Source: Lingula anatina
Lineage: Eukaryota > Animalia > Brachiopoda
Assembly (NCBI GenBank): GCA_051362555.1
Contig: CM120642.1
Span: 9,610,001 to 9,674,000 of the forward strand
Length of the DNA stretch: 64,000 bases
Direction of reading: 5' to 3'
Shown here: piece by piece, positions 28,433-56,624 of the stretch
How the letters are laid out: the number at the start of each line of letters is the position of its first letter
Numbering within the stretch: the first letter of the stretch is position 1
Made by a program: the position numbers and the translations under genes
Notes under the pieces: generated by a model
The model's database searches: none
Seen by the model: only the letters and a program-made list of their open reading frames with translations
Told to the model about the DNA's origin: nothing

Positions 28433-31137
28433 CTGTGCAGAAAAAATAAGATAAAGACAAAAGTTGAAACAACTGGGCATTTTTTTTTCTGCTTTGATTA
28501 GCCACAGTTTAACTTTTATATTAAATAAACACTAAGTTACCACTTGCATAAAAATGTGTTAACACTTTAAAAAACAGCTTTGTTTCTTCACTTAATCACA
28601 CCGTTAACATGCAATAATCATAAGGTACAAAATTAATCTACAAGATAGCTCCATTCAGAAGAAGTGTATGGACACCCGGGTTGATGCACATACCCTGTGA
28701 CCAGGAGAATGCTTTGGTTTAAGTCTCCCAGCAGACGCTGAGGTTGTAAGTTGCTGAGGTTCCATTCTGTCCTTCTCCTCCTCTTCTTCCTCATCTTCAT
28801 ACTCTTCTCCATCCTCATCCTCTCCCTCCTCCACAACCTCTATTATGTCATCGCCATCCTCATCCATGTCTTCAGAATCTACAACAATAAGATGTACTTT
28901 AAAGTACACAATCACTACATAACTATACCGACAAGTATAAATGATTTAACATGTACATGTTCAAATCACATCCACATGCAAGTAAGCACTACCATAGATC
29001 ACATTAATTAGTACCACCAGCGTGTACGCTGGCGGTACTCATGGTTTTAGTCCCGACCCGTCTCGTCCGGCTGTGCCGGCTCCGTTGGCTCCGCCGGCTC
29101 CGTAAGCTCCGCCGGCTCCGCGTACTGGCGCCGGATACAAGTCACCGTTACCGCTTCTCCTCCTAGACCGCAAAGACCCCTGTCCCCATCTTTTGGATTT
29201 AGGTCACATATAACCTCAACTTGAACCCCCAGGTTTTTTTTGTCTCAGTCGGTGCATTAACCTGGGCGTGACGCTCGTTGAAATGCACCCTTGTCAAAAT
29301 TTTTGAAAATTCAATGCCAATTATCTACCCTACGGAAGGAATTATGGGAAAAATTTCTACAGACGGCTTTTCAAAAGTCATATGTGTAGATTTCAAATAT
29401 GCCCTTGGATTTGACCTTTGACCTTTATTTCAAGGTCAAACGGGCCAAAATTTTCAAAAAAATGAATTTTTTTATGAAAAAATATTATTTGCGCTGTTAT
29501 TCAGACACTACAAAGACTTAACCAATGATATTATTGGAAAGTGTTACCCTTTGGGTCATCTTTCATCTCCGTGAATTTGGGGTCAATCGGTGCATTTTCA
29601 CGGGAGAAGCGGCCATAAGATACTGAAACTGAAAACTGTCTCTAATTCGGGAACCATTAATGCTAGCGACCCGTTCTTTTTTGCATTTTGTAGAGCATGT
29701 AAAGCCCAACATTGAAGGTGGTCTCCGTTTTTATGTACAGACACAGATGTGTCTGTACATATTGCCATCATCTGCGTCTGTCGTCGCCGTCGCTGTCGCC
29801 GTCGCCGTTGGCGTGCACTTTCACCGTAAACACGATAAGTGAAAAACTGTTTTACCTTTTGGCTTGAAAGTTACAGAACTGATGAATATTCATAATACGC
29901 CGGTCAAGTTCGAAAATCAGCATGATCGGGCTATTTGTAGGGAATTTATGCTTTTTTTTCACTTTTTTCAGTATATATGCAACACCGTAAACACGATAAG
30001 TGGAAAACCGTTTTACCTTTTGGTTTGAAACATACAGAACTGATGAATATTCATAATACGCCGGTCAAGTTCGAAAATCAGCATGATCGGGCTATTTGTA
30101 GGGAATTTATGCTTTTTTTTCACTTTTTTCAGCATATATGCAACACCGTAAACATGATAAGTGGAACACCATTTTACCTTTTGGCTTGAAAGTTTCAGAA
30201 CTGATGAATATTCATAATACGCCGGTCAAGTTCGAAAATCAGCATGATCGGGTCATTTTTATGGAAGTTTAGCTGTTTTTTTTTCACTTTTTCCAACATA
30301 TATGCAACACTGATAACACAATATAAGAAAAACAGATAGGCCAATTGTCATAATACTTACAGGAGTAGTCAATCTTACCAAAAAGCAGGTTGAGTTCGAA
30401 AATCAGCATAATCGGGCTATTATTTTAGAAGTTATGCTGTTTTTTTTTTTCACATTTCCTCAGATTCAATTCTTAAGCATGTTAACAGTCTCTTTATTTA
30501 ACTAATAAGATACGTAAAAGTGTTTGTTTGATATTTCCTGCATCTTTACAACATTGTTAGTTGATTATGTAAAAATGATGGTAAACTTGATATTGTGTAC
30601 TGTATAATAAAGTGTCAAAAATGGAAATAAACTCATATCATTGCAGTTTGTCAGATTCAATCATCCACTATGTTCAGAATCTCAGAATGGAGGAAATCTG
30701 ACATTTAACACTGTTCTTTTGATACTTTTCCCATCTCATCAATTTTTTTAGTTGGTCATATAAAAATGGCAGTAAAATGTTTATTTTGTTTTATGTTCAA
30801 AAAGTGTTAAAAATAGAAATGAACCCATTTCAGAATAGTGCTGTCTTGTTTACATTTTGGCATTTTCAAGATGTGACTTTGAAGTTCCATGGGCCTGAAG
30901 ACCTTTGCTAGTCACATTTTCTGAATATCTGTGATACATATAATTTATTATTAAAAATTGATGGTCATTAAGCTGTTAAAAATTATGTAATATTGCATCA
31001 AAATTTGAAGAAACCCCTATTTTGGGCACTGCTCCCTTGATGACCATTTAAGGAAAATCATGTCACTTACTGTTCTCAAACTTACAGGAAAGAAACATGG
31101 GACTATAATACAGCTTCAGTAGGCAATGCAGTCTGTT

Positions 31138-31192
<55 letters not shown>

Positions 31193-34100
31193 TCATTCTT
31201 TGCTAGTGGTTACAAAATGTTGAATTTGACCGAAAATTTCAAACTTTCTCTGGGAAGCTGTAATTTTGCAATGTGATAGCTACACCATCACAGTTTATCA
31301 TTTCATCAAAAGGGAAACAGCAGATGCCCTTGTCAGGGCACACAAGAGAGTTGAACAGCTATACCTTCCAAATCCAAGACGCGTTACATGGGAGATATAT
31401 TTGGCACTAAAACTAATGAAAATCTAATGGAATGTTTTTAGTTTTAGTTTAAATCATAAGGGGGTGTTGTCTCAATGCTTTAAAATTGGTTTTGAAGAAT
31501 TTAATCCACATTTCATAATTAATAAAAATGGTGAATATGTGGGTCACGGTAATGTTAGTGTCGCAGGTACAAAAACTTTTTATAATCATGTAAATAATAA
31601 AATATTTTTGCTATTATCCACATACACTTCAATCATGAGGGGAACATCACTCTCACATGCTTTGAAAATGGAATTGGCAAACACAGAGGAATAATGCACA
31701 TATTTTGTTTACTGTAACTCTGTCACGTGGGACACACACTGAACAAAGTTGATCTAAAGAATGTTCTAGATTGTAGTTCTTTATCGGAATTATTATTATT
31801 TTTTATTATTTTAACACAATAAAGTTCAGTTAAATACAAAATTTAACAAAATGAAGTCCAGTGTAACACAAAGTTCAGTATTATAACATTCTTCCTGGTG
31901 ATATCTGCTCTGTGCTCACCAAGGCATCCACTCTTGGGATTCTGAAAAAAATCAAAAATCATGGATAACCTATGACCACAAATAGTTTATTGCTTATTCA
32001 AACAAAGTACAGTGCATTATGAGTGGCAAACACCCATTACTGACACACATTTTCTTCACCCATTTTCGGTGCTTCATTGCATAACGTAAGTGTTGCGAGT
32101 AATCCATTATTGCTGTTTTTACAGACGGTTAAATTTTAAACGCACTGAATACAGTGTAGCAGTTAAATCAAGACAAAACTAAAAAAAGTCATTCAATTTC
32201 AATGATTGAGTTTTCGAGAACAAGAGAACATGAATACGGTGTCGCCGCGTTACCATGTTCAATATGAACTTTAGTCCCCCATGTGACACAGACGCAAAAC
32301 GAAAGTTCAGACGAAGTCGCCCTATACTTATCGAATGGTAATAATCAATCGGTAGGGCCTACACATATATGTTGAAACAATTGAAGAAAAATGAAACGAA
32401 ACTCAGTATTTCTCACCTTCATACAAAGAAGATCCCTATAAACAGTCCTGTGGCAGTTAAATCGAGGGAATTACACCTGTGCCCTGCATCCGATCAAGAA
32501 AGCGTCACTGCATTACACGTATCAGAATGGGGCACCCGCCAGTTTGAGCTGGTTTTTTTAGTGTGCAAAAGAAGCCATTCGTGTGTGAGACGTCATCAGT
32601 TAGTGAGTATGGAAGAAGATCGCTATTGATGTATAATTTTCACGCGGCATTTTAAAGTCGTCTGATAAAAATCGATCTCTGAAGTTTCAGCGTAACGAAC
32701 GTTACATTGGGACGGGGTGTAGAAAAATCAACATGTTGAGCAAGAAATGTGAAATTCTTAAGAAAACTGATATTATCATGGACTTTGTGACTCAAACTAA
32801 CCGACCTACTACTTTGGACGATTGAACAGTTTTAATACGGAAAGATAGGATTAGATGAAATTTTCATCGGGGTGGGACACCGCATGTATCGTAAATTACG
32901 CTAATTTTGTGATCATTTTTCAGTGACTTCAAATAAATTTTTATTTAAATAACTATTTGCACATTCTGTTTATTATATCTTCTTGCAGTAGATGTATTTC
33001 CTGCTTCAATAATCCCTTCAAACCCTAAACAAACTGTTCTTAAATAGAGGTAGGGTCAAAATTCCACAAAAAAGGACGCTATTTTGAGGGTAAATTCGAT
33101 ATATTTTCTGCTTTTTCTCTTATTTTGCTTTTATAACAGCATCCCCCTTGCTCATGCAGCTTCTTTGATTTGTTATTGAAACATACACAACGATGTCATG
33201 AGAATTTGGTTGGCTATCTAAATTCAAATTACATTCTTGTTATGGCCCCCCCCCCCCCCCCCCCCGCAGTGCACCACTAGCAAAGAATGACTGATATATA
33301 TTTTGGCAGTTAAACAGTTTTTTGTGAAAATTTAATTTTTCACATGTTGGCATTTTCAAGGTGTGACTTTGAAGTTCCATGATCTTGAAGACCTTTGCTT
33401 GTCACATTTTCTAAATGTCCATGTTACTAATATTCTATTATTAAAATATAGATGGTCATTTTGCTGTAAAGCATTATGTAATGTTGCATCAAAATAGAAG
33501 AAAACACAATTTTTGATGCTGCTGCCATGATGACCATTATAAAAAAACTGTGTTACTCATGACTGTCAAACCTTTAAAAAAGAAACACTGAACTAAAATG
33601 CAGCCTGAGTTGGAAATTTGCTTCTTTTTCTGGAAGTTATACATTTGAGTGAAATATTCATTATCTTTTTGGCATATTCATAGTGGGACTTGGAGCTCCC
33701 ATGGATATGAAGGCGAATGGTAATCAAATTTTCTACATGTCCATGCTATTTATAGTCAATAATCAAAAATTGGTGATAATTATTCTACAATTTATTATGT
33801 AATGTTACATCAAAATTGACAACAATCTTTCTGCGCTGCTACTGCAAACATTATGAAAAGAAAATTGTGTTACTTATTATTATTTTTAACTTCCAAGTAT
33901 GATTTCAAGGATTGGCATGCAGTTCAAATTAGAAAGCCAGGTCAATTGGGTTATTGTTTATTATTGAATAATTTATGCAGTTTTGTGTGAAATTTTCATT
34001 TTTCTCATTCTGGCACTTTCTTAGTATAAACTTGAACTTTGATGGGCCTGAAGCCTTATGCTCCTACTTTAGTTGGTGTTACCTGTTGTACATAATTAAA

Positions 34101-34422
34101 ATTTGATGTTGACTGTGCAGTTAAACATAATGTATTAATGCATCAGAATTGGTAGTCTCCTATTTTGTTTTGTGCTTTTCTTAAGATGTGACTTATGGGC
34201 CTAAAAGGCCTTTGAGAGGGTCAGTCTGTAAATTTCCCTTGGGTATCACTTAGCTGAGCTCTGAGTTATAATGTCATTTGCCTAATTGATTATTAATAGG
34301 CCATTAAATGAGATTACATAAAGCACACTTGTTGATATCTCCCTGTAAACTCCCAAAGGTTAAGCTCTCTGCTAGATTAATAATAAGGAAGCAGTGATAA
34401 TTATGGAGGTAAATTATTCAGG

Positions 34423-34469
<47 letters not shown>

Positions 34470-37400
34470 AACACAAAGATGAAAAGTTTGAATAGCAGCA
34501 TCATTGGAATTATATTTACCTCAGGCTCTGCAAAGGAGGTTATATTTTCACCCCTGTTTGTCTGTCATCAACATTACTCAAAAAGTTATAGACCAATTTC
34601 GCTGAAATTTTCAGGAACTGTCAGAAGTGGGCCAATGATTAGTTTTTGGTGGTGGTTTGGCTCAATTATCAATCAATAATAATCAACAATTGCTGCCTTG
34701 GCAGAGGTCTGCACTCTCGGAGTGCTTTTCTAGTTTTGTTATGTTTTCCTTTATAATTTTTTCTCAAACACTTGCATTTGTGACTTTAAACTCAAATCCG
34801 CTCGAGGCTCTGCAAAATTTTCCGTATTTCCACAGAAGCAGTTGTATTGTTTTTATGTCTTTAAACATTATGTAATATTATTTTATGCACTGTCATCATT
34901 TTTCAAATATTGAGACTTTCATCGTGCGACTTTGGTCTCTCATGGACCTGAAACTGTAATCTTATTGAAGGGGTGGATTGAGACCATCTTCTGGGTCTTC
35001 CGGAAGACAGTCAAGTTATTAAGTTTATATTGACTGGTATCTATTTTTTTCTGTTGGAAGACCATCAAAGTGGAGGATGAATCAACATAGATACTTTGGA
35101 ATACTGTCAGAAAATATCTCAGGGTCCGCTCCTGTTATTGACCATGTTACCTGTTGTGTATGATTAAAATTCAGTGTTGACTGGCAGTGCTATTATAAGC
35201 ATTATTTATTAATGCATCAAAATTGACAAAATGACCTTTTTTGCATCTTTATTTTCTGTTTTTTGTCTGTACATTTGACAGCTTTGCTGCCTTGTTTTGT
35301 ATTTCATACGATTTTTGTATTATGCTGTATTAAAGAGTACATTATGGTGACACATTATTGTAACTCGGAATTGTAACATTTAGTCCCTTATATCTCCAAA
35401 ACTGGCAGAGATAGGTCAATAGTTATTATTTAAGTTGAATAGGAAGTCATTTACTGGCATTCTAAATGTGACCTTTAAATTGACCTTTGACCTACTTTTC
35501 ACCATGAACTGAACTTTGCAAATTTTTGTTCCCTTTTATCTCCAAAACTGGCAGAGATAGGTCAATAGTTACTATTAAAATTGAATAGGAAGTCACATAC
35601 TGGCAATTTAACAGTGACCTTTAAATTGACCTTTGACCTACTTTTCACCATGAATTGAACTTTGCAAATTTTCGTTCCCTTTTATCTCCAAAACTGGCAG
35701 AGATAGGTTCATAGTTACTTTTGAACTTGAATAGGAAGTCATATACTGGCAATTTACTGTGACCTTAAATTTGACCTTTGACCTACTTTTTACCATGAAC
35801 TGAACTTTGCAAATTTTTGTTCCCTTTTATCTCTAAAACTGGCAGAAATAGGTCCATAGTTACTATTGAACTTGAATAGGAAGTCATATACTGGCAATCT
35901 AAGTGTGACCTTGAAATTGACCTTTGACCTACTTTTCATTATGAATTGAACTTTGCAAATTTTCTTTCCGTTTTATCATCAAAACTGGCAGATATAGGTC
36001 CATAGTTACTATTGAACTTGAATAGGAAGTAATACACTAGCAATCTGTGACCTTGGAATTGATCTTTGATCTACTTTTTATGATGAACTGCTTTTTGCAT
36101 GTTTTCGGGCCTTTAAATCTGCAAAATTGGCAAAGAAATGCCCATGGTTGCTATTGAACTTGAATAGAAATTCATATACTATGATATTGAAATTGACCTT
36201 TGACCTACTTTTTCACCATGAACTGAGCTTTGCATATTTTCTTGCCTCTCATATCTTTAAAACTAGCAGAGATGTGCCCCTTGTTGCCCCTAGGTTTTCT
36301 CTTTTGTCAGCATATATGCACCATTGACAACACTTTTCAAGGAAAACCAATAGGCCTTTTGTCTAGAGAATACAGGAGTGATCAAGGGTAGGAAAATGCA
36401 AGTCAATTTGAAAATCTGCTTGATTGTACCATTTTTAGTTATATTTTTTTGCATATTTTGAGAACTCTTATTGATTGCATCTTATAGAGCTTGTCAAGCA
36501 CAAGACTGGTGATGGTGTCCCTTTTTGGAGGGGGGGTCCATACGAATGCGCTTACTCCAGCTGGTGGTACAATATCCGGAGGCGGTATCGCCTCTCTGAT
36601 CCTCTAGTTTTAAACTAGGTTTTGCTTTCATATGAACCCAAACAAGTACACATACACTTGTATGCCCATATCCATCTACATACACCTATACATTCACACT
36701 GCACGTGCACACTTACACACACAAACACACACATACACAGAGCAAGTTTGTTTTCTGGAAAGTTGTTCTTCAAGATTGGAAAGACTAATGACAGCATCTG
36801 ATAGTGTGTCATAAAAACAGTAAATCGAAGCTTATGTTACCTGTTTCATCACTGGGAGTGTAAAATTTTGGTGGTTCTTCAATCCTAGACACAAGCTCTG
36901 CCAGGTCAGTGAAGGTTGCATTGAGTGGTGTAAAACACTTAAAATAAAAACAATGTTTTTCATCATTTTCTATAAACTGCTTGAGACACAAGTGTTGGAC
37001 ACAAGTGCAAGGAATAGAGGTGTGTTTTGAAGGGGGCTTACATCAAGAGAGGCCAAGGTCTTGTTTCGTTAATATGTTTGAATTGCTTAATCAAGACTGC
37101 AGTGCACTGCAATTGGGTGACAATAATGAAGATAAAGTATTCTAAAAAGGTTCCATGTGCACATGAGCACAGCCAACCTCACCAAAAAATTAGAAGTAAA
37201 GACATTTCATAAACACCACACCAGTAAAGATTTTATGAATATGACTATACATAAATGAATTGTTCAAAGTGTTAAAGTAAAAGAAAACAAAAACTGTCAA
37301 AGATGAAGATTGTTGTTTAATACTAACCTGATGTATTTTAGGTTTTACTCTATCTTTAGATTTCTCTTTGAAGAGTTCGTTGATAGCATCTCCCTTGGCC

Positions 37401-38957
37401 ATTGCAGAGAAGAACACCTTACCATGGTTGTAACCCACATCCTATGTACAAACAATGTTCACTGGCTACACTTCATTGTTATTATTACTAAAATATTATT
37501 ATTATTATTATATGTTTAAATACTGTGTAAAGAACTTACAAAATAAATCAAAATTCTGTTCAAACTAATGGTTTTTGTTTAAATCATCGTTCTTATAATT
37601 TCTGACAAAAATATATACATACAAAATTTCTATTATAAATATTCTTTTATATTACAGTACTTTCAAACAGAAGTACTTGATACTCTGAGTCAGTTACATA
37701 CAAATCTTTCATCACCACTAATGGTGTTGTGATTAGTTGTGATTTGGACACTTACATAAATCTCATCAAAGCTTCCAAACTGCAGTGTGCCATACTTGTC
37801 AATGGGTGGCCGCAGGTACTCACACATTCCACTGTTTGTCACCATCTCCATCTGACGCACACATGACACATAGGCAAGGCGGGACTGGACGTCACTCATG
37901 TTTGGCACCTTGAAAAAGAAATAAGTGTGAAAAGTGAACTTTCGCAAATGGAAGCTAAGCAAAGATATGAGGAGAAAAAGTGACCATCATCTCTTAGGTA
38001 GGAAATTGGTCTCATAAAGGGGTAGGGGGTGGGGTGGGGGGGGGGGGGGGTTAGAAAGTAGACTCGCAATCAAAGCTTCTTAATTTCTTTGACTTTTGTC
38101 TGCAAGAGCAACATTCAAGAAGAATGTATAAGATGTTTAATGGAATATGATTTTTTGCCAGTCAAGAATCCTCTGACATTTTTAACATAACCAAATGTAT
38201 TTTTAAATAGAAACTTTTGATAAACAAAAAGGAACCAGTTTCGCTGACTTCTAACATAGTTTAGTCCAAGCTTGGCTCTCTTCACTCACTTTGACAGGTT
38301 CTGCCCATGGATTCCAGCGTTTCCACAGCAACCACCATCCAGACAACTTGTCGCCATAGTTGGTGAGGTTTGTCTCATCCTGGCTGCCTACGTCTATGGC
38401 AAATATTGTTTGAGCACCCATGGTTTTCATGACATCAGCTGCATAAATAAAAAGAAACCATTCAGAGTAGTCGTAGATGACATGGTGCATACTAAATTGA
38501 TTAAATGTTATTATTGAAGTGCTTGAATTTCCCATTCACTCAGAGGTCTGAGGTTTAAAAATACTACGTATGAAGTTTACAAATACTACATTTTTAACAT
38601 TTTCCAATTTGTCATCTGTAACTGATAATCAATGTTTTTCTTTGATTAAACATTATACTACACCTGCAAAAAAAAATTTAAACTGTTTTCCTCAATAATA
38701 AAGAAAGGATGGCATACAAATAAAGTTTTTTTAATCATTTCTCATCCCATAATAATCAATGGAAATACATGGTAAGATGGATGAAATGTTCGCTGTGGAC
38801 ATTGCAACAAGATTAACTTTTTGAAAAGACTTTGTGATTACCCTTTACAAAGAACAATCTTGCTTTATTTATATAAAAAAAACAAATCCTTCAAGAGAAC
38901 AACAGTCAAAGTCTCAAAAAGTGCTTTAAAACCCAAAGAAGTCCTCAATTCAGAAAT

Positions 38958-39014
<57 letters not shown>

Positions 39015-42000
39015 ATCTAAAACACTACAAGATATGTAAATGAAAATATTGTACATAACAAGTCACAAACATTTCACCACAGATCATAAAGCATATTAAA
39101 ACAAAAAGTAAAATCTTAACAGTGCTTAAAATTTAGATTGAGGAAATACAGATGATGCTCAATTATGCAGTTTATCAAAAGAAGTATAACTTGGAAGTTA
39201 AGTTACTTCAGGAACAAACCAGTTAGCCAGAGGAAACATTTCAAATTACTATTTAATTTTTCAGTTAAAAGTTTATCATTTTAGATTGAAATGCCAGATT
39301 ATTTCCATGTTATAAGTCTGAATAATAAAATTAAGAAAATTTGTAGCTACAGCACTATCTAAGTCAAAATATCAACAATATACACTGGTCACATTACAGA
39401 TGGCCATATCACAATAGAGATGACCATGTTAAAGCTGATGTCCAGTATGTACCTGGTAAATTATTAACATATCCTCCGTCCATCAGTAAGTGACCGTCCA
39501 TGGGATCACACAATGGCGGCATATATCCCGCGAGGGACATGCTAGAACGTACATAGCGCCACAGGGACCCTAGAAAAAGAAAGGGAAAATTCCTCTCCCT
39601 TAGACTACTGGGTCTCAACACACAAAATACCTGGTAAGTTGTTGCAATAACCGCCATCTAAAATAAGATGTCCGTCCTGGGGATCACACAGAGGAGGGAA
39701 GTAGCCAGCCAGTGACATGCTGGCCCTGATGTATCTCCACAAGGAGCCTGTAAAAACACAATCCTCAGTCAACATAACACAGTGGTGAATGCACCACGGC
39801 ACCAGTGCGCACATGCACATTGCCTACCAGAGCATGCACCGCATGTTTGTACACAGCATGCATTTTAGTTGTTTACCTGGGACGTTATCTACGTAAGCTC
39901 CGTCCACAAGTAAATGTCCGTCCCGCGGATCACAGATAGGAGGTAGTGCGCTCGCAATGGACATGCTGCCACGCACATAACGCCACAAGCACCCTACAAA
40001 GAGCCGGATACAGCAAATACAATCTTTCCTGCTGGAGTTAAGTGTAGAAAACCTACTGCACAGAAAAAAAGGCTTGTTAGTAAAAAAGAAGACAAGTTTA
40101 GAAATTTGCACCTTCTGTTTGTTTCTTTTTTTTTTCATAAGCCAAAAAATAAAAACCAATCCATATTACATATCATTAAATGGGTCAATACAAGAAAGAT
40201 TTTGGCTTTCCTGCATGTGAAAATTTCTAACCTTACAAACTGTAAAAGTCAAACATTAAAGTGAGATAACCATTAGCCAGGTATGCACCACCTAGCTGCT
40301 CAACTTTCAGTGTAATGAGGTAAATAGATAAAATCAAATTTTGTCATTCAAGCGTCTAGTTAAATTCTACAAGTCTTTATTTGCTTTTGGCAAGTAAAAT
40401 TAGAAAAATAAAATAAAATAAAGCTGCTTATATCAAGTCTTTGTCCAGTGCTATAAGGCTTTTCCACTCAAGCATCATATCTTATATATACAGTTGTATT
40501 GTTATTCTTTAAGAGGCTCAACTATGTATGATTATGCTACACAGGAATTAACTCCCTTTCAAAAGTCCTTCATAAATTCGCTTCAACCTGCTTAAACATT
40601 TTACTGACTCTTATATAAAAGCTACACTATTAATTTGTCAACCTCTTTAACATGCCAATACAACTGTATCACCAAGATAGACTGCTTGATGTGAAAAGAA
40701 ATAAAGTGTTAACCTGGCTTGGTGTCATACATTTCTTACAATTGACTGCTTTCCCACTAACAGATACAGTGATCCAGCTTTATCAAGTCATTAGTGTGAA
40801 GTGATGTTCAAACAAATGGGATCATTTTCACATTTTGTTCTTAACAAAGGTAACGTTGTGCAATATGGTTATGACTCTTCCCTAGCCATGCATCACATTT
40901 TTTAAGCCCTAGACTCAAACAGTCGAAATAGAAGACAAAAAATTAAAAATGTGAAACTGATCCTTAACATTTTACAGCAATAACACATGATAAAAGAGAA
41001 ATATTTTTCTAAGATATCAGTACGGTGTAAAAGTAGGTGGTTTCATATGTTAGATTTTATAACAAATGGAATTAAGTTCAAGTAACAAAGATAAGACTAT
41101 GAAAGACATGGTTGTGACATCATACTGACCATATGCATGCACCTCATTACTTGCATTTTAACTTTCTTAAAATTAGTTGAGTCAAACTGATACTTAACAT
41201 TTAATACATTATGAAATTAAAGAAATATTTTGTTTACTAAAATATCAGTAGGTGGTATCATAGGTTAGATCAAACAATTTGTTCTCAAAATGGATCAAGA
41301 TGGGAAGGGAGGAACTGGAAGTAAAGGCACTGTTAAACCAACAGAGGTAGTGATAAAAAAATTGCAACAAATGCTAAACTTCAACACTGAACATAATTAA
41401 GCATGCAAATTTCAACATAACTTTCACCAATATTTTCATTATAATTATCACCATACAATTTTCTTTAAACTGCCATGTCTTTTTTCATTTACCCAGGGGC
41501 ACCCACCTAGTATATTCAACAAACACATCCAGAATATATCAGGCTGTGCCTTCACCCACTTGCACCCACATAAATCACTCACCCACTCTATGTAACCCAC
41601 CTGAGGTATGTACCCTCATCTTAGAGGAGGTAATATCAGTAGTAATACAGAAGTAAGGAAGCCAAAGGTCTTCTATCTGAGTGTCTCGGAAGACTTCTTC
41701 CAAACTGTTGTTGAATGATCCACCTGTATACAGAGAAAAAATGTAGTACTGTAGTACCAAAGAAACATATAGCATTTAATTGTTGCTAGTTCTGTCAAAA
41801 CCTAAAATACTCAAAGTGAATTATAAACAATTCTAAAAATATCATAATTGAAATGAGAATATGTAAATTAATTTCGAATTCAGATGGAATCAGGGAATGA
41901 CATGAAAGTGATGGCCTACAGTTCAATGAGCTTAAAAGCATGACTAAATCTGCACTGATTCAGACAAATTGGTTCCTTTTCTTTAGAAGTGATATGATAA

Positions 42001-45000
42001 CAATTAAACACATTCTAAATAGCAGTCAGTGATTTACTGGATCTAAGAACATAACTTAAAGAAAACCAGACTTAATCTAGCTGAAATACAAAAACATCTT
42101 ATGTTAGAAATATTTTTATTGAAACCAGTCTAAAAGTCTGCAACTTGCTATCAGTAAAGACCAACAAATAAGTTTCCAACTTGCCTGTGAAGAAGGAGGT
42201 CACTGGGTAGGTGAGGTCAAAAATCTTCTTCCACAAACAATTCATTTCCTAAAACAACAGGGGATTATTTATTATTTTATCAATCATGTGAAAATGATGT
42301 TTCCTCGTCATGATAAACTTCTCCATATGGTACACAAAGAATCAGTGCTTTTTCTCCCTTACACTACAGCATTGTTATCTTTCTAAATGCTACATTCTAA
42401 ATTGTGCTACACATATACATACATTTTCCAAAAAACATGCTAAATCAAAATCAAAGTAAAAACACTGAAAAAGAACACTGCCACAAAGCATCTTATATAA
42501 ATATATTTTAAAAGAATAAGGTGGGGTTTTTCCATAACATACATGATTACACCCACGGCATAATGCTGTACAGAGACTACCATCTAATCTCAGCAGTTTG
42601 ACTATTCTTACCATAGCCCACTCCCTGGCCCTTTGTTTTAGCCTGGTAATGTTCCTTTCATCACACCAGATGGCCCCTATGAATGCCCCGATGCTGGTGC
42701 CACCTACAATATCTATAGGTATCCCTGCTTCTACTATTGACTTGATCATTCCGATATGAGCACATCCCCTAAAATAGAATTATTTTCTTAAATGTATTAA
42801 ATGTGTCATACCTGAAGGAGAAATGCACCAGTGAGAAAAAAAAAACATTCCATTAACCCTAAACATATTCATATATCATCAAGTTTTGGGAAGCACTGAT
42901 GTCTGTAAAGCACATTTGGTGATTGTACAAGTAGTAAAATTATGTTCAACTTGATAATTTCAGACAGGCAAAATTTGTCTTATTCAAGCTTGTCCTTTGA
43001 TTTTAACAGAAAAAATATGTATCTGAGAGAATTTTTTTAAACATAAATAAATCAATGCATTATATAATTACAAAAACATCTTTTAATTCTTAATTTTCTG
43101 ATGTTAAAATTTTTGATCTCTTAAATATGAACTAAATTTAAAATAAAATTTTAATATCAAAACATTCTAATCCCAGTAATCACCACCGGTGTTCAAAACA
43201 TACCTGGCCCCTCCACCCCCCAGTACCAGGCCTATGGAGGTGCCGGTCAGGAAGCGGGCGAGACGAGAGAAGTCTGAATGTCGATCAGGTTCTGTTTGGA
43301 AGATCTTGTCATATTTTTGCATCTTAAAGTAAAAAGAAACAATGACATATTCAATTACGAAGATAGCACATGATTGACAGAATGATGTATTTAATCAAAA
43401 TTGTCACCATATAAAAAAATTTAATGATGCCATTGTAAAATGTAAGTGTTCTAATAGACAAACAATCACTGCCTCCTGTTCACAAGTGATTTTAGAAACT
43501 CCTATTTCATTTATATAAAATATACTCTTTTTCTTTATTTATTATTTTTCTTTCTGGTTACTGACATTAATATTACCTATGGCATAATCCAAAGCACTCT
43601 TCAAAGCTTTTGGATCAACTTCTGCATCATAAAACCACAAACCGAAAACAAGGCAGCAAAGCTGTCAAATGTACAGACAAAAAACAGAAAATAAAGATGC
43701 AAAATAGGTCATTTTGTCAATTTTGATGCAATAATAAATAATGCTTATAATAGCACTGTCAGTCAACACTGAATTTTAATCATGCACAACAGGTAAAATG
43801 GTCAATAACATGAGCGGACCCAGAGATATTTTCTGACAGTATTCCAAAGTATCTATTTTGATCCATCCTCCATTTTGATGGTCTTCCAACAGAAGAAAAA
43901 ATAGATACCAGGCAATATAAACTTAATAACCTGACTGTCTTCCGGAAGACCCAGAAGATGGTCTCAATCTACCCTTTCAATAAGATTACAGTTTTAGGAC
44001 CATGAGTTTAAATTCACATGATGAAAGTCTCAATATTTGAACAAGGCAGCAAAGCTGTCAAATGTACAGACAAAAAACAGAAAATAAAGATGCAAAAAAA
44101 GGTCATTTTGTCAATTTTGATGCAATAATAAATAATGCTTATAATAGCACTGTCAGTCAACACTGAATTTTAATCTTGCACAACAGGTAACATGGTCAAT
44201 AACAGGAGCGGACCCAGAGATATTTTCTGACAGTATTACGAATCTATGTTGATCCATCCTCCATTTTGATGGTCTTCCAACAGAAAAAAATAGATACCAG
44301 TCAATATAAACTTAATAACCTGACTGTCTTCCGGAAGACCCAGAAGATGGTCTCAATCCACCCCTTCAATAAGATTACAGTTTCAGGACCATGAGAGTTC
44401 AAATTCACATTATGAAAGTCTCAATATTTGAAAAATGATGACAGTGCATAAAATAATATTACATAATGTTTAAAGACATAAAAAACAATACAACTGCTTA
44501 TGTAGAAATACAGAAAATGTGCAGAGCCCCAGGCAGATGAGAGCCTGCCTGGGGCTAAAAGTCACAAATGCAAGTGTTTGAGAAAAAATTATAAAGGAAA
44601 ACAACAAAACTAGAAAAGCACTTTGAGAGTGCAGACCTCTGCCAAGGCAGCAATTGTTGATTATTATTGATAATTGATTGATTATTGATCCGGACCACCA
44701 CCAAAAATTAATCATTGTCCTCTTTGGCCCACTTCCGACAGTTCCTGAAAATTTCTGCAAAATCAGTCCATAACTTTTTGTGTTATGTGGATGACAGACA
44801 AACAGGGGTGAAAATATAACCTCCTTGGCAGAGCTTGAGGTAAATATAATTCCAATGAAGCTGCTATTCAAACTTTTAATCTTCCAGTTTGATATATATA
44901 TACATATATATATAAATAAAAAACTTATTTGCAATATTAAACAAAATTTACCTGCATAATTATCACTGCTTCCTTATTATTAATCTAGCAGAGAGCTTTA

Positions 45001-48000
45001 CCTTTGGGAGTTTACAGGGAAATATCAACAAGTGTGCTTTACGTAATCTCATTTAATGGCCTATTAAAGCAAATGACTTTATAACTCTGAAATTAATCTA
45101 GTGATACCCAAGGGTAATTTACAGACTGACCCACTCAAAGGTCTTCAGGCCCATAAGTCACACCTTAAGAAAAGCACAAAACCATAATGCCCAAAATAGG
45201 AGACTACCAATCCTGATGCAATAATACATTATGTCAACATCAACTTATGCACAACAGGTAACACAGACGAAAGTAAAAGCATAAGGCTTCAGGCCCATCA
45301 GAGTTCAAGTTTATACTTAGAAAGTGCCAGAATGAGAAAAATGAAAATTTCACAAAAAATGCATAAATACAATAAACATGATAATCCAATAGAGCTGGTT
45401 TTCTCATGAGCTGAAGGCCAATCCTAAAAATCGTACTTGTAAGTTTAAAATTATAATAAGTAGCACAGTTTTCTTTTCATAATGTTTGCAGTAGCAGTGC
45501 AAAAAGATTGTCAATTTTGATGTAACATTACATAATAAATTAGAGAATAATTATCATCAATTTTTGTTTATTGACTATAAATAGGATGGACATGTAGAAA
45601 ATATGATTACCATTTGGCTTCATGTCCATGGGAGCTCCGAGTCCCACAATGAATATGCCAAAAAAGATAATGAATATAACACTAAAATGTATAGCTTCCA
45701 GAAAAAGAAGCCAATTAGACTGCTTTTCTAACTCAGGCTGCATTTTAGTCCTGTGTTTCTTTTTTGAAAGTTTGACAGTTATAAGTAACACGGTTTTTCC
45801 ATAATGGTCATCAAGGCAGCAGCACCAAAAATTGTTTTCTTCTATTTTGATGCAACATTACATAATGCTTAACAGCATAATGACCATCGATTTTTAATAA
45901 TAAAATATAAGTGTCATGGATTTTCACAAAATGTGACTAGCACGGGTCTTCAAGCCCGTGGAGGTTCTAAGTCACACCTTGGAAATGCCAATATGTGAAA
46001 AATTAAATTTTCACAAAAAACTGTTTAATTGCCAGAAAAATTTACCAAACAGACTGCATTGCCTACTGAAGCTGTATTTTAGACCCACGTTTCTTTCCTG
46101 TAAGTTTGAGAACAGTAATTAACATGACTTTTGTTAAATGGTCATCATGGGAGCAGTGCCCAAAATAGGGGTTTCTTCAAATTTTGATGCAACATTACAT
46201 AATGTTTAACAGCATAATGACCATCAATTTTTAATTATAAAATATTAGTATCATGGATATTCAGGAAATGTGACAAGCAAAGGTCTTCAGGATCATGGAA
46301 CTTCAAAGTCACACCTTGAAAATGCCAATAAGTGAAAAATTAAATTTTCACAAAAAACTGTTTAATTGCCAGAAAAATTTACCAAACAGACTGCATTGCC
46401 TACTGGAGCTGTATTTTAGTCCCATGTTTCTTTCCTGTAAGTTTGAGAACAGTAAGTGACATGATTTTCCTTAAATGGTCATCATGGGAGCAGTGCCCAA
46501 AATAGGGGTTTCTTAAAATTTTCATGCAATATTACATAATGTTTTACTGCATAATGACCATCAATTTTTAATTATAAAATATTAGTATCATGGTTATTCA
46601 GAAAATGTGACTAGCAAAAGCCTTCAGGCCCATGGAACTTCAAAGTCACATATTGAAAATGCCAAAATGTAAACAATACAGCACTGTTCTGAAATGGGTT
46701 TATTTCCATTTTTAACACTTTTTAAACATAAAACAACATAAACAGTTTACTGCCATTTTTATATGACCAATGAAGAAAATTGATGAGATGGGAAAAGTAT
46801 CAATAGAACAGTTTTAAATGTCCAACTTCCTCCATTCTGAGATTCTGAACATAGTGGATGAATACATCTGACAAACTGCAATGATATGAGTTTATTTCCA
46901 TTTTTGACACTTTATTACACAATACATGATAACAAGTTTACCATCATTTTTACAAAATCAACTAACAATGTTGTAAAGATGCAGGAAATGCCAAACAAAC
47001 ACATTTACGTATCTTATTAGTTCAATAATGAGACTGTTAACATGCCTAAGAATTGAATGTGAGGAAATGTGAAAAAACAGCATTACCTTTTAAAATAATG
47101 GACTGATTACGCTGATTTTCAAACTCAACCTGCGTTTTAGTAAGATTGGCCCCTCCTGTGAGTATAATGACAATTGGCCAATCTGTTTTTCTTATATTGT
47201 GTTATCAGTGTTGCATATATACTGAAAAAAGTGAAAAAATAGCCTAAATTCACTAAAAATGACCCAATCATGCTGATTTTCGAACTTGACCTGCGTATTA
47301 TGAATATTCATCAGTTCTGTAGGTTTCAAGCCAAAAGGTCAAATGGTTTTCCATTTATGGTGTTATCCGTGCTGCATATATGCTGAAAAAAGAGAAAAAA
47401 AAGCCTAAATTCACTAAAAATGACCCAATCACGCCGATTTTCGAACTTGACCTGCGTATTATGTATATTCATCAGTTCTGTAAGTTTCAAGCCAAAAGGT
47501 AAAATGGTTTTCCACTTATTGTGTTATCGGTGCTGCATATATGCTGAAAAAAGTGAAAAAACAGCATAAATTCCCTATAAGTGACCCGATCATGCTGATT
47601 TTCGAACTCGACCTGCGTATTATGAATATTCATCAGTTCTGTAAGTTTCAAGCCAAAAGGTACAATGGTTTTCCACTTATCGTGTTATCGGTGCTGCATA
47701 TATGTTGAAAAAAGTGAAAAAACAGCATAAATTCCCTAAGAGTGACCCGATCATGCTGATTTTCGAACTTGACCTGCGTATTATGAATATTCATCAGTTC
47801 TGCAAGTTTCAAAGCAAAAGGCAAAATGGTTTTCCACTTATCGTGTTATCGGTAAAAGTGCACGGCGACGGCGACGGCGACGGCGACAGCAACGACGGCG
47901 ACGACGGCGACGACAGACGCAGATGATGGCTATATGTACAGACACATCTGTGTCTGTACATAAAAATGATGACAGTGCATAAAATAATATTACATAAGTA

Positions 48001-48363
48001 ACATAATGTTTAAAGACATAAAAAACAATACAACTGCTTATGTGGAAATACAGAAATGTCAGAGCCTCAGGCGGATGAGAGTTAAAAGTCACAAATGCAA
48101 GTGTTTGAGAAAAAATTATAAAGGAAAACATAACAAAACTAGAAAAGCGCTCCGAGAGTGCAGACCTCTGCCAAGGTAGCAATTGTTGATTATTATTGAT
48201 TATTGTCCTCTTTGGCCCACTTCTGACAGTTCCTGAAAATTTCAGCAAAATCGGTCCATAACTTTTTGAGTTATGTTGATGACAAACAGGGGTGAAAATA
48301 TAACCTCCTTGGCAGAGGTAAATATAATTCCAATGAAGCTGCTATTCAAACTTTTAATCTTTG

Positions 48364-48442
<79 letters not shown>

Positions 48443-51400
48443 CTTATTTGCAATATTAAACAAAATTCACCTGCATAATTATCACTGCTTCCTTATTATT
48501 AATCTAGCAGAGAGCTTAACCTATGGGAGTTTACAGGGAAATATCAACAAGTGTGCTTTATGTAATCTCATTTAATGGCCGATTAATTAGGCAAATTACT
48601 TTATAACACTGAAATTAGCTAAGTGATACCCAAGGGAAATTTACAGACTGACCCTCTCAAAGGTCTTTCAGGCCCATAAGTCACAACTTAAGAAAAGCAC
48701 AAAACAATAATGCACAAAATAGGAGACTACCAATTCTGATGCAATAATACATTATGTTTAAGTGCAAAGTCAACATCAAATTTTAATTTTGCACAACAGG
48801 TAACACCAACGAAAGTAAAAGCATAAGGCTTCAGGCCCATCAGAGTTCAAGTTTATACTTAGAAAGTGCCAGAATGAGAAAAATGAAAATTTCACACAAA
48901 ATTGCATAAATTCAATAATAAATGATAACCCAATTGACCTGGCTTTCTAATTTGAACTGCATGCCAATCCTTAAAATCATACTTGGAAGTTAAAAATAAT
49001 AATAAGTAACACAGTTTTCTTTTCATAATGTTTGCAGTAGCAGTGCAAAAAGATTGTTGTCAATTTTGATGTAACATTACATAATAAATTGTAGAATAAT
49101 TATCAACAATTTTTGATTATTGACTATAAATAGCATGGACATGTAGAAAATTTGATTACCATTCGCCTTCATGTCCATGGGAGCTCCGAGTCCCACAATG
49201 AATATGCCAAAAAGATAATGAATATTTCACTCAAATGTATAACTTCCAGAAAAAGAAGCCAATTAGACTGCTTTTCCAAGTCAGGCTGCATTTTAGTCCA
49301 GTGTTTCTTTTTTAAAGGTTTGACAGTCATAAGTAACACATTTTTCTCATAATGGTCATCATGGCAGCGGCACCAAAAATTGTGTTTTCTTCTATTTTGA
49401 TGCAACATTACATAATGCTTAACAGCATAATGACCATCAATTTTTTAATAATAGAATATTAGTAACATGAACATTCAGAAAACGTGACAAGCAAAGGTCT
49501 TCAGGATCATGGAACTTCAAAGTCACACCTTGAAAATGCCAATAAGTGAAAAATAAATTTTCACAAAAAACTGTTTAATTGCCAGAAAAAAATTACCAAA
49601 CAGGCTGCATTGCCTACTAAAGCTGTAATTTAGACCCATATTTCTTTCCTGTAAGTTTGAAAACAGTAAGTGACATGATTTTCCTTAAATGGTCATCATG
49701 GGAGCAGTGCCCAAAATAGGGGTTTCTTCATATTTTGATGCAACATTACATAATGTTTAACAGCATAACGACCATCAATTTTTAATAATGGAATATTAGT
49801 AACATGGACATTCAGAAAATGTGACTAGCAAAGGTCTGCAGGCTCATGGAACTTCAAAGTCACATCTTAAAAATGCCAAAATATAAACAAGACAGCACTG
49901 TTCTGAAATGGGTTTATTTTCATTTTAACACTTTTTTAACATAAAACAAAATAAACAGTTTACTGCCATTTTTATATGACCAACTAAGAAAATTGATGAG
50001 ATGGGAAAAATATCAATAGAGCAGTGTTAAATGTCCAATTTCCTCCATTCTGAGATTCTGAACATAATGGATGATTGAATCTAACAAACTGCAATGATAT
50101 GAGTTTATTTCCATTTTTGACACTTTATTACACAATACACGATATCAAGTTTACCATCATTTTTACATAATCAACTAACAATTTTGTAAAGATGCAGGCA
50201 ATATCAAACTAACACTTTTACATATCTTATTAGTTAAATAATGAGACTGTTAACATGCTTAAGAATTGAATCTGAGAAAATGTGAAAAAACAGCATAACT
50301 TCTAAAATAATGGCCCGTTTATGCTGATTTTCGAAATCAACCTGCGTTTTAGTAAGATTGACCACTCCTGTAAGTATAATGACAATTGTCCTATCTGTTT
50401 TTCTTATATTGTGTTATCAGTGTTGCATATATGTTCAAAAAAGTGAAAAAACAGCATAACTCCCCTAAAAATGGCCCGATCATGCTGATTTTCGAACTTG
50501 ACCTGCGAATTATGAATATTTATCAGTTTTGTAAGTTTCAAGCCAAAAAGTAAAATGGTTTTCCACTTATTGTGTTATCGGTGCTGCATATATGCTGAAA
50601 ATAGTGAAAAAACAGCATAACTTCCCTATAAGTCACCCATTCATGCTGATTTTCGAACTTGACCTGCGTATCATGAATATTCATCAGTTCTGCAGGTTTC
50701 AAGCCAAAAGATAAAACGGTTCTTCACTTATCGTGTTATCGGTGAAAGTGCACGACGGCGACGACGACAGACGCAGATGATGGCTATATGTACAGACACA
50801 TCTGTGTCTGTACATAAAAAGTAATCTGCAGAATCAAATGTATCACATCAAAGTGTACTCACAATCTGCTCAGGTGTTTTCCTACTGTAAGTGAATACTC
50901 TGCCTGGACACCTGACATGGAATACAGAGCTACACCAGCCCCTGGGGTTCAACCACTCGGCTGTACGCTGAGGCTTCCCGCTGTCCTCACTGTACAACAA
51001 GATCATCTCCCTCTGAGCCCTCACAGACATGTTTTCTAGTTGTTTCTCAAGCTAAGGTATAAGAAGAATATATAGGTAAATTTTGTTTTGCAAAGGTTCT
51101 CTCTTCTCTTCTCTCCATGTTCCAACAGCAAATTTTTTAAAAACTTAACAAAAAAAGAAAAAGGAGAACTTCTTTTACCAGTCTACCTATCTATATAAGT
51201 TTACATGTCTATGTAGGTATGAAATCCTCAGTACACAACTCCCAAAATATTCAAGGATGAATTTACTATGGCTAAAGCGACAGCAAAGAATGCTTCATGT
51301 GTGACAGTGGATGAGCCAGAACACAATGCTATATGATACTCACCTTCCCCACAGTGGGTTCACTTTCAGCCAGTGTGACAATAAATATGCAGTCAGCCTG

Positions 51401-54400: not shown

Positions 54401-56570
54401 TCATATGAGAAGTGTTTACCCATAGAACTCATTCTTGTCTATGTAGACCACCCTGGAGTCTGTCCTGGCTCTGATGGTGAAGAAGGAGGGTTCTCCAGTC
54501 AGCACTGCCAATGTTCCCACCACTTCCCCTGGGTGGGCAATGAACAGAGATGTCTGAATTATAACAACAGAGTATAGTTATTGAACAGAGGGTCCTGGCA
54601 ATGAATGGAGAGAGAAATATCACTACAGAGTACAGTAATTAACTGGGTACAGAGCTAGCAACGAACAAAGGCATCTGAAATATAACAGTACGATGTAGAA
54701 ATTTAACTGGGCTTAAAGCTAGTTAAATATAACAAGAAATAGTAGTCCATTTCCAAAATAGTCTTTGTTCTGAAAATTTCATATGTAACACTTATTCATA
54801 AGATGATTGCCTCTCTGTTTCTCACATGTGCGTGCGTGCACAAGGGGGTGTCTGTGCATGCATGCACACGTGTATGTGTTGGCATCACAGTGCATGTTTG
54901 TGCCCTGATTATTTTCACACAGTCTGTGATATTAACCACTGGCCCCATACCAAATCCCCAAGACCAGTCAACATATTTTGTGAATTCCTACAGTTACTGT
55001 GCAGTGTTTCTACCTTGAACTAGTACATGTAAGTTCTCAGGCACTTGTGGACCAGTGTGTGAGTAACCTGGACAGTGTCTGGGACACACTGTTCACCAAT
55101 GAAATGTTGTATGTTGTGTTAGGTCAACCTACCTCTTCTGTTTCCTTGCCAACCACCTGTTGAATAACTTGCAAAGATCCTGTTACAACAAACATCAATG
55201 TGGCATCCTAAAAACATTTTATGAAAAAACTTTTTATATTTCTGACAAGACGAATACTAACAAAGCATAAAAAAATTGGAACTATCTGGATTAAATTACA
55301 TCCAATCAGTTTTAGCCTTTTTTTAGAAAACTGTTCTTTACATAAAAGCATGCAAATATAATTTTAATGGATAGCTGAAATGCTTAATGTTGGTTGAAAA
55401 CAGACACTTTGATTCAGTCATGAAATATAAACAGTATCAGAATTTGTCTGTTATTAACTGTAAACGCTGATTCAACCACGAAAGTGCAACTGAGGATGTA
55501 GCTTATCATAATCCATACAGTTGGCCTGGCTGTGTTACCTGGTCTCCTTGTTTCACTAACACTGTCCCAGCTTCATGGTACCTTAGTATCAGCTTGCCTT
55601 CCAACAGAGACTTATCCTGAAGTGAAAAATCAAATAGACACATCATCATAGGTTATATATAACCCATTCAAAAAAGATAAAGGAAGAAATAAAAAGCAAC
55701 TGCCAGGACAAGAGAGTAAATATCCCGTTAGAATCATATACAATTTTTCATGTTAAGTTGCAACTCTATAAGCCAATTGCTTCTACTGTGCTACACAGCC
55801 ACAAATTCACTCACTAGGTTTCTAACCTACCTTAATTAGTTCTGGATCTCTTTTTAATCAAAACATTTTTTTCTTTCATGCAAATCAGATTTTTCATGGG
55901 TGAAACCTTTACGCATTTCCAGAAGGTTAAAACCCTTTGTAAGCCCAAAGATTTGTGAATACCACATAAGTGCAAAGCTACAAATTGTGCAAAGCTACAA
56001 ATTCATACAAATAGTTACGGATTGTCATTAACCTTTGAGAATATGGGCCAAATTCCCCAAATCATTACCTCCAGCCCAAAGAGTTTATCACTGGCCAAGT
56101 CCTGCATGGCACAGCTGATGATGTACTCCTCTGTCAGCTCCTGGGAGTTGGTGGTGATGTTGGCCTCCTCCTGAATGTTCACCGTTTTCTTGACAGTTCT
56201 CTGCTTTGAGCTACCCAATGCCTCATCTGAGACCTGAAGGACATATAACTTAATGTAAATACTCATAAATTTCATACACCATAAATGTCCAATAATTACA
56301 CTTTATATTTTTTTAAAGACCTAACATGATTTAAGTTTATTTTAATTTATTTTATTATAAAATTTCTTGAGGGAAAAGGAGAAGGCAATTATTATCAATT
56401 TAGTTCACATGAAGTGGAAAATAACCATGTTCTTTTTGAAAAAAATTAATATCCAGTCTTCACTAAGACAAACTTTTTCAATACCAATTCGGTGCTTAAT
56501 AAAATGTAATCATTAATATGGTACATTCAACTATTAAATTTCTTGTGTTAATATTTAGACAATAAACAAT

Positions 56571-56624
<54 letters not shown>

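What the first reader, a model, noticed from the sequence alone, without database searches (positions are those of the whole stretch)
39453..39993. Three interchangeable active-site exons: a putative mutually exclusive catalytic cassette in neuropathy target esterase
Seen: three tandem exons, each exactly 117 nt and phase 1-1, with intact splice sites and open frames, diverged in DNA but clearly homologous. A is [33 protein letters not shown] is [32 protein letters not shown] and C is [32 protein letters not shown]. Known: this segment carries the catalytic Asp of the patatin Ser-Asp dyad (DGx motif), and vertebrate PNPLA6/7 have one such segment, so including two would disrupt the fold. Inference: the gene swaps half of its active site by mutually exclusive splicing, giving three enzymes that share one serine and regulatory domain but may differ in lipid preference or organophosphate sensitivity. 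A is the most derived (DGA for DGG, SAL for GY[FM], VDNV for [VC]NNL). I cannot confirm whether this has been described in other invertebrates.
Basis: partly seen in the sequence, partly recalled or inferred. Interest (0 to 1): 0.9.

Follow-up and report, generated by a model that had tools for sequence, protein, structure and literature searches.

The report
Three swappable catalytic exons in NTE
The neuropathy target esterase gene of a lamp shell (it matches a Lingula anatina record) has three tandem versions of the exon carrying the catalytic aspartate, all three seen spliced in RNA and likely used one at a time; two-version switching at this exon is already published for humans and flies, so what is new is the third version and a soft-coral pair suggesting the switch is likely older than bilaterian animals.

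Summary
Observation confirmed: three 117-nt, phase 1-1 exons (A, B, C) with intact splice sites in an NTE/PNPLA6-7 gene matching a named Lingula anatina protein. RNA reads from 8 runs join B and C to both flanking exons and A to the downstream exon (4 reads, one run). No A-B, B-C, A-C or skip-all joint was listed, but depth is low: up to about 30% B-to-C joining could be hidden. All 10 alleles listed in the exons are synonymous. The core event is not new: the human PNPLA6 / fly sws exon pair is published and dated to Bilateria (PMC8373072, PMC9741552), and this scan noted the arthropod pair before on other DNA (e1-7392627). So 'vertebrates have one segment' is wrong for PNPLA6, and A is not a local novelty but belongs to the widespread DG[C/A] variant class; B and C are both canonical DGG. 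New here: a third, old, expressed exon (0 of 386 fetched proteins show three), and octocoral isoforms differing only in this exon, which would push the switch before Bilateria. The class-defining residue likely corresponds to PNPLA3 Ile148. Different enzyme properties are untested.

The parts
28820..62934 (-). NTE / PNPLA6-7 (swiss cheese) gene, coding exons matched to residues 54-1370 of named record P0149 (Lingula anatina)
   Evidence: 33 exact-match blocks, collinear; the record uses exon B
43204..43322 (-). constitutive exon with the glycine-rich loop (GGGGAR)
   Evidence: spliced reads
42612..42768 (-). constitutive exon with the catalytic serine motif GTSIG, shared by all isoforms
   Evidence: spliced reads
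41601..41723 (-). constitutive exon upstream of the cluster (phase-1 donor)
   Evidence: joints to B (17 reads, 5 runs) and C (15 reads, 5 runs)
39877..39993 (-). exon A, variant class (Ile at column 12, DGA; Asp codon 39904-39902)
   Evidence: 4 reads in run X1 continue into exon 38438; upstream joint not listed in any run; class score +18.4
39748..39876 (-). A-B intron, 129 nt, three TGCATG copies (first bases 39862, 39838, 39817); in-frame stop if retained
   Evidence: 4 reads of X1 run from B into this intron
39730..39760 (-). predicted 14-bp hairpin covering the pyrimidine tract and AG of exon B's acceptor
   Evidence: -12.5 kcal/mol; lowest predicted openness of 33 acceptors, tied with one other; prediction only
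39631..39747 (-). exon B, canonical class (DGG; Asp codon 39658-39656); the extra third exon or its twin
   Evidence: 17 upstream and 17 downstream junction reads; class score -18.0
39570..39630 (-). B-C intron, 61 nt, branch-point-like sites 16 and 31 nt from the donor
   Evidence: the other 31 introns placed from P0149 are 193 nt or longer
39453..39569 (-). exon C, canonical class (DGG; Asp codon 39480-39478)
   Evidence: 15 upstream and 36 downstream junction reads; class score -21.5
38290..38438 (-). constitutive exon downstream of the cluster (phase-1 acceptor)
   Evidence: joints and loose-end consensus from A, B and C

Best explanation
This is a cluster of three homologous 117-nt exons in an NTE/PNPLA6-7 gene, each seen spliced to the common downstream exon and likely used one per transcript, so that the likely products share the catalytic serine but differ in the 39-residue segment that carries the catalytic aspartate. 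Exon A belongs to the ancient variant class known from human PNPLA6 and fly sws; B and C are two old copies of the canonical class. B-to-C joining is likely blocked sterically by the 61-nt intron; A versus B is likely a regulated choice (weak A acceptor, three RBFOX-type motifs between A and B, a predicted hairpin on B's acceptor). The A isoform is predicted to be an active enzyme with a reshaped substrate groove, because the class-defining change (Leu to Ile/Tyr/Val/Phe, 18 residues before the Asp) sits where PNPLA3 Ile148 sits; B versus C would be a finer adjustment.
For: Shown: exon anatomy. Junction reads in 8 of 9 listed runs: B 17 up/17 down, C 15 up/36 down, A 0 up/4 down; no joint between cluster exons and no skip-all joint listed. 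Alleles listed in the exons: 9 of 9 synonymous in the complete table, plus one more in the cut table; chance for 10 of 10 about 4e-6, for B's 7 alleles at 6 sites about 2e-4 (ts/tv 4). B vs C pS 0.95, pN 0.16: old copies under purifying selection. Class columns: column 12 is Leu in 30 of 30 canonical and 0 of 25 variant exons; A scores variant, B and C canonical without using the DGx column. Same-length isoform pairs differing only in this exon in Dendronephthya, Myxine, Glossina, Amblyomma. Published human/fly event. DGA is a normal patatin motif (passages, PMC10291501; PMC12871566). I148 and D166 of PNPLA3 are 18 apart and I148 is modelled in the substrate groove (passages, PMC3199456); column 12 to column 30 is also 18. 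Model pLDDT 86.9 puts the exon on a helix, loop and the strand before the Asp, fold PlpD/patatin.
Against: Depth is low and a joint is listed only from 3 reads in one run: a 30% B-to-C share would stay unlisted with probability 0.25, 40% with 0.04. The 41601-to-A joint was listed in no run, and A rests on 4 reads of one run. Mates are counted separately; X7's four reads into C share one start. Databases of other animals list both-exon and no-exon isoforms (Glossina 5 both, 3 skipping both plus 1 truncated, of 15 listed; Myxine 5 both of 7), so exclusivity may be leaky there. The exon tree (38 columns) is mostly unresolved, the variant class is one side of a branch in only 48% of bootstrap trees, exon order differs (canonical first in 15 arthropods and the coral-like ORFs, variant first in 9 chordates, rotifers and Trichinella and in this window), and a profile without arthropods put only 3 of 15 arthropod variant exons above zero. 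The TGCATG cluster is modest (236 of 20,000 shuffles reach 3, found after looking) and the region does not fold better than shuffles (z -1.6). No activity was measured.
Confidence: 0.7

Rival explanations
1. Only two functional classes exist: B and C are interchangeable duplicates of the canonical exon, kept because both feed the total level of canonical enzyme, with no difference in enzyme properties.
For: B and C agree at all class-defining columns (12, 14, 15, 32, 37) and most of their 7 differences are residues seen in canonical exons of other animals. Both are used in the same runs (X4, X6, X7, X8).
Against: Synonymous sites are saturated while amino acids are kept, so both have been retained for a long time; differences include the residue just before the Asp (L/M) and C/V four after it; X1 and X2 list C but no B junction.
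Confidence: 0.3
2. The variant exons arose several times by independent duplication of an exon prone to it, converging on DG[C/A] and a non-Leu column 12; the coral pair then does not date the human event.
For: Exon order flips between lineages; the chordate/rotifer variants form their own starred group apart from the arthropod, coral and window variants; the authors of PMC8373072 call common ancestry only the 'balance of probabilities' (supplement passage).
Against: The AU test does not reject one origin (p 0.618, and the constrained tree is 6.4 log units better than the free one); same exon, same length, same changed columns in six phyla; A's nearest sequence is the octocoral variant (76%); order can flip by duplication and loss through three-exon states such as this one.
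Confidence: 0.3
3. Splicing is not exclusive: two or three exons are often included together, or all skipped, giving inactive or regulatory forms.
For: All exons are multiples of three, so co-inclusion keeps frame and escapes decay; many database proteins of other animals carry both copies (78 of 386 fetched) and Glossina has skip-both models; the read threshold hides small shares.
Against: No such joint listed in 8 runs against 89 single-exon junction reads; the B-C intron is 61 nt with branch-point-like sites under 50 nt from the donor (criterion from PMC5740500 passage); both-exon database entries may be gene-prediction merges.
Confidence: 0.12
4. Exon A encodes a weak or dead enzyme used to turn activity down while keeping the regulatory domains.
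For: A has Ser-Ala at columns 14-15, seen in none of 55 named exons; it is rare in the runs and has the third weakest acceptor score.
Against: The Asp, both prolines, W, R, S, D and H columns are intact; DGA is a working motif in other patatin domains.
Confidence: 0.12

Closest known systems
[quoted passage not shown]
   Same: Same exon, 117 nt / 39 residues, one canonical DGG exon and one variant exon, variant first, short intron between them (85 nt by the table's coordinates).
   Different: Two exons in human, three here; human variant has DGC and Tyr at column 12, A has DGA and Ile; RNA junction support shown here for a brachiopod.
Drosophila swiss cheese (sws) exon pair (PMC8373072 supplement; PMC9741552 Table S5 'Bilaterian ancestor') and the arthropod sws pair
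   Same: Same position; arthropod variants resemble A (SMSI start, V before the Asp, final VP).
   Different: Canonical exon comes first in all 15 arthropods examined; two exons only in the records fetched.
Dendronephthya gigantea PNPLA7 isoforms X1/X2 (XP_028394630.1, XP_028394631.1)
   Same: Equal length, 10 differences, all inside this exon; variant has DGA like A and is A's closest sequence.
   Different: Two exons; canonical first with a 36-nt spacer in unnamed look-alike ORFs. Annotated in a database, not discussed in the papers I read.
PNPLA3 I148M
   Same: A single residue 18 before the catalytic Asp that is modelled in the substrate groove and changes activity (PMC3199456 passages); the class-defining NTE column has the same spacing.
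   Different: An allele in another paralogue, not a splice switch; the equivalence is inferred from spacing and a recalled motif, not from an alignment made here.

Membership tests
Mutually exclusive cluster of tandem-duplicated homologous exons | Tandem exons of like length, same phase, intact splice sites | tested here: met
   117 nt, phase 1-1, AG/GT
Mutually exclusive cluster of tandem-duplicated homologous exons | Sequence homology over the same protein region | tested here: met
   23-31 of 38 residues; same Pfam positions
Mutually exclusive cluster of tandem-duplicated homologous exons | Each exon joined to both flanking constitutive exons | tested here: inconclusive
   Met for B and C; A only downstream (4 reads), upstream joint not listed
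Mutually exclusive cluster of tandem-duplicated homologous exons | No transcripts joining cluster exons | tested here: inconclusive
   None listed in 8 runs, but shares up to about 30% could be hidden
NTE / PNPLA6-7 / swiss cheese | Patatin domain with glycine loop, GTSIG serine and DGG/DGA aspartate | tested here: met
NTE / PNPLA6-7 / swiss cheese | Cyclic-nucleotide-binding domains before the patatin domain | tested here: met
   P0149 carries PF00027, PF24179, PF01734 and its exons lie in the window
NTE / PNPLA6-7 / swiss cheese | Lysophospholipase / organophosphate-sensitive esterase activity | not testable with these tools
   needs enzyme assays
Published PNPLA6/sws exon-substitution event | Same exon, one canonical and one variant class | tested here: met
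Published PNPLA6/sws exon-substitution event | A pair of exons | tested here: not met
   three exons here; hence filed as a variant of it
Published PNPLA6/sws exon-substitution event | Variant exon orthologous across phyla | tested here: inconclusive
   tree unresolved, AU p 0.618, order differs

The most novel reading that the evidence does not exclude
The catalytic-Asp exon switch of NTE is a single event older than the cnidarian-bilaterian split, kept from soft corals to humans, that exchanges the substrate-groove residue equivalent to PNPLA3 Ile148 together with the DGx residue and so makes a second NTE enzyme with its own lipid and organophosphate specificity; this brachiopod has expanded it to three regulated exons, the kind of intermediate that explains why exon order flips between phyla. 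The second enzyme of a human disease gene would then be biochemically unstudied.
Probability: 0.4. Interest if true: 0.68.

Novelty: new variant of a known kind. Interest (0 to 1): 0.42.

Why it matters
NTE/PNPLA6 is the target in organophosphate-induced delayed neuropathy and is mutated in inherited neurological disease (PMC9025805 passages). An alternative catalytic-Asp exon is catalogued for human and fly, but my searches listed no paper that compares the enzymes. This window adds an expressed three-exon state in a brachiopod, points to a cnidarian pair that would make the event older than its published date, and names a residue (column 12) that makes the functional question directly testable. 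On its own the third exon is a modest addition.

Tried and rejected
No whole genome is held, so further gene copies elsewhere in the genome could not be checked. Pseudo-exon reading for B or A: rejected on junction reads and synonymous-only alleles. Recent duplication of B/C: rejected, synonymous sites saturated. Docking-site/selector RNA pairing: no convincing candidate; region z -1.6, the 25 longest inverted repeats shown were mostly the AT run, and no related DNA was on hand to test conservation. No Rfam match in 36300-41800. Looking for three-exon states or named mollusc/annelid variant exons: none among 386 fetched proteins; cluster look-ups for 10 candidate proteins gave no useful names; this is weak evidence, since protein records rarely show all exons. 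Short spacers between paired exons in read-through ORFs (36-150 nt, 12 proteins) are biased to short stop-free introns and were not used as proof. Literature on RBFOX control of this exon: nothing relevant in 8 listed papers; PMC11494077 mentions Pnpla6 mis-splicing without saying which exon in the passage seen.

Full report
Observation. The three exons are at the stated places on the minus strand: A 39993-39877, B 39747-39631, C 39569-39453, each 117 nt, AG before and GT after, phase 1-1, open frame. DNA identity is 77-82 of 117 and protein identity 23, 26 and 31 of 38 for A-B, A-C and B-C; each hits Pfam Patatin positions 152-186 of 191. The introns between them are 129 nt (A-B) and 61 nt (B-C).

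Gene and organism. A homologue search with exon B returned the named record P0149, a Lingula anatina PNPLA7-named protein. Its residues 54-1370 lie in the window as 33 exact, collinear blocks from 62934 to 28820, and it uses exon B. So the window is an NTE/PNPLA6-7 gene of this brachiopod or a near-identical source. The glycine loop and the GTSIG serine are in constitutive exons upstream; the Asp of the dyad is in the cluster (GTSIG/DGG dyad of PNPLA6: passages of PMC10291501, and PMC9025805).

RNA. Nine RNA runs were listed by species label and eight were laid, about 6% or 25% of each being read. Junction reads: upstream exon to B 17 (5 runs), to C 15 (5 runs), to A none listed; to the downstream exon from A 4 (run X1 only), from B 17 (4 runs), from C 36 (6 runs) (tally). 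In one search the downstream links are loose ends whose consensus is the start of exon 38438. No A-B, B-C, A-C or skip-all joint was listed. Limits: a joint needs 3 reads from 2 starts in one run, mates count separately, X7's four reads into C share one start; a B-to-C share of 30% would be unlisted with probability 0.25, of 40% with 0.04. X1, the run that uses A, lists no B junction and has 4 reads running from B into the unspliced A-B intron, which holds an in-frame stop. Tissues are unknown.

Selection. All 9 alleles listed inside the three exons (complete table) are synonymous, as is one more, whose table was cut by 146 rows. Expected synonymous share is 0.22-0.29, so 10 of 10 has a chance of about 4e-6 and B's 7 alleles at 6 sites about 2e-4. 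B versus C has pS 0.95 and pN 0.16: the duplication is old and both copies are conserved.

Relatives. Searches with A, B and C and cluster look-ups gave 386 proteins; 78 hold two tandem copies of this segment and none holds three by my pattern. Named carriers include insects, crustaceans, chelicerates, a centipede, rotifers, Trichinella, amphioxus, hagfish, reptiles and mammals. One copy is canonical (Leu at column 12, DGG), the other variant (never Leu at column 12; DGC in 21, DGA in 4 of 25). In a set of 30 canonical and 25 variant named exons, A scores as variant (+18.4) and B and C as canonical (-18.0, -21.5) with the DGx column left out; five fungal segments have the canonical Leu and DGG (the fungal rows were picked by DGG). 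Leaving one phylum out classed chordates (13 of 13), rotifers (4 of 4), Trichinella (2 of 2) and the coral (2 of 2) correctly but arthropods only 18 of 30. Same-length isoform pairs differing only in this exon are on record for Glossina, Amblyomma, Myxine and the octocoral Dendronephthya (XP_028394630.1 / XP_028394631.1). Unnamed ORFs P0027 and P0206-P0209, nearly identical to the Dendronephthya exons, read through both copies with a 36-nt spacer, canonical first. The same clusters also list both-exon and no-exon models, so exclusivity may be leaky, or the models are merges.

History. The 38-column tree of 63 rows is mostly open; the variant class is one side of a branch in 48% of bootstrap trees, the AU test does not reject one origin (p 0.618), and B and C do not pair with support. 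Order is canonical-first in 15 arthropods and the coral-like ORFs, variant-first in chordates, rotifers, Trichinella and here. One pre-bilaterian origin with reshuffling is my preferred reading, convergence a real rival.

What is known. PMC8373072 names PNPLA6 among 13 human events with Drosophila orthologues (passages and section 17); its supplement discusses PNPLA6-sws and lists the two human 117-nt exons as event 164, last common ancestor Bilateria (supplement passages and table rows). PMC9741552 Table S5 lists PNPLA6-sws under 'Bilaterian ancestor'; its main text has no hit for cnidaria, coral or Nematostella. PMC9025805 notes two 1425-residue fly isoforms without comment (passage). PMC5740500 and PMC7954323 have no PNPLA6 or sws hit in the main text; their supplements, Hatje and Kollmar 2013 and the MetazExp database (listing only) were not seen and may hold more, including Lingula splice events. 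Searches for a study of the isoforms' function or of a three-exon or Lingula case listed none; the library lacks most subscription papers. This scan noted the arthropod pair earlier in a springtail-like window (e1-7392627).

Mechanism, shown and inferred. Shown: alternative use of the three exons. Inferred for B/C: the 61-nt intron has branch-point-like sites 16 and 31 nt from the donor, under the 50-nt steric limit used in PMC5740500 (passage), while the other 31 placed introns are at least 193 nt. Inferred for A/B: the 129-nt intron has a normal branch-point-like site, so something else must act; A's acceptor is weak (third lowest score), B's is strong but predicted to sit in a 14-bp hairpin, and three TGCATG copies lie downstream of A and upstream of B, the only such cluster on the window's minus strand (236 of 20,000 shuffles). 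That TGCATG binds RBFOX, which promotes an upstream and represses a downstream exon, is recalled, not tested. Inferred for the protein: the model (pLDDT 86.9, patatin fold) places the exon on a helix, a loop and the strand before the Asp, so two copies would not fit simply. DGA is an accepted patatin motif. Column 12 lies 18 residues before the Asp, as PNPLA3 Ile148 does before Asp166; Ile148 is modelled in the substrate groove (PMC3199456 passages). The A switch would therefore reshape the groove; B and C share column 12 and DGG and differ in 7 residues nearby.

Verdict. Real, expressed and conserved; a three-exon variant of a published but functionally unstudied event. The cnidarian pair and the Ile148 correspondence are the useful additions.

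Noticed in passing
window 42184-41724 (- strand): A GC-AG intron of 461 nt in the patatin domain, supported by spliced reads in 6 of 8 runs.
   Followed up: yes
window 36532-36609: Hundreds of reads, mostly from the strand opposite to the gene, cover this 78-nt stretch and run on into varied unrelated sequence: a widely transcribed repeat inside the last intron. No Rfam match.
   Followed up: partly
P0202/P0203 (Dendronephthya gigantea); P0027, P0206-P0209: An octocoral has the canonical/variant exon pair, beyond the published Bilateria date; look-alike unnamed ORFs imply a 36-nt spacer.
   Followed up: partly
P0158, P0161, P0284, P0339, P0360, P0380 (unnamed contig ORFs): The upstream exon reads straight into the canonical segment and then into intron-like sequence, as if the upstream intron, and with it the switch, was lost in some lineage; taxon not found.
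   Followed up: partly
P0222, P0224, P0230 (Glossina): Annotated isoforms skip both exons and so lack the catalytic Asp.
   Followed up: no
P0004, P0005, P0365 (unnamed full-length proteins): Single segments that mix canonical and variant marks (DGA with Leu or Ile at column 12), possibly gene conversion or a single fused class.
   Followed up: no
window 58689-57800 (- strand): P0149 residues 310-380 look unlike relatives and one junction there has no GT/GC-AG solution: the database model may be wrong in this part.
   Followed up: no
window 29822-30310, 47195-47853, 50407-50744; 35384-36273; 45796-46677: Tandem repeat arrays with periods 161, 146 and 337 nt inside the two long introns.
   Followed up: no
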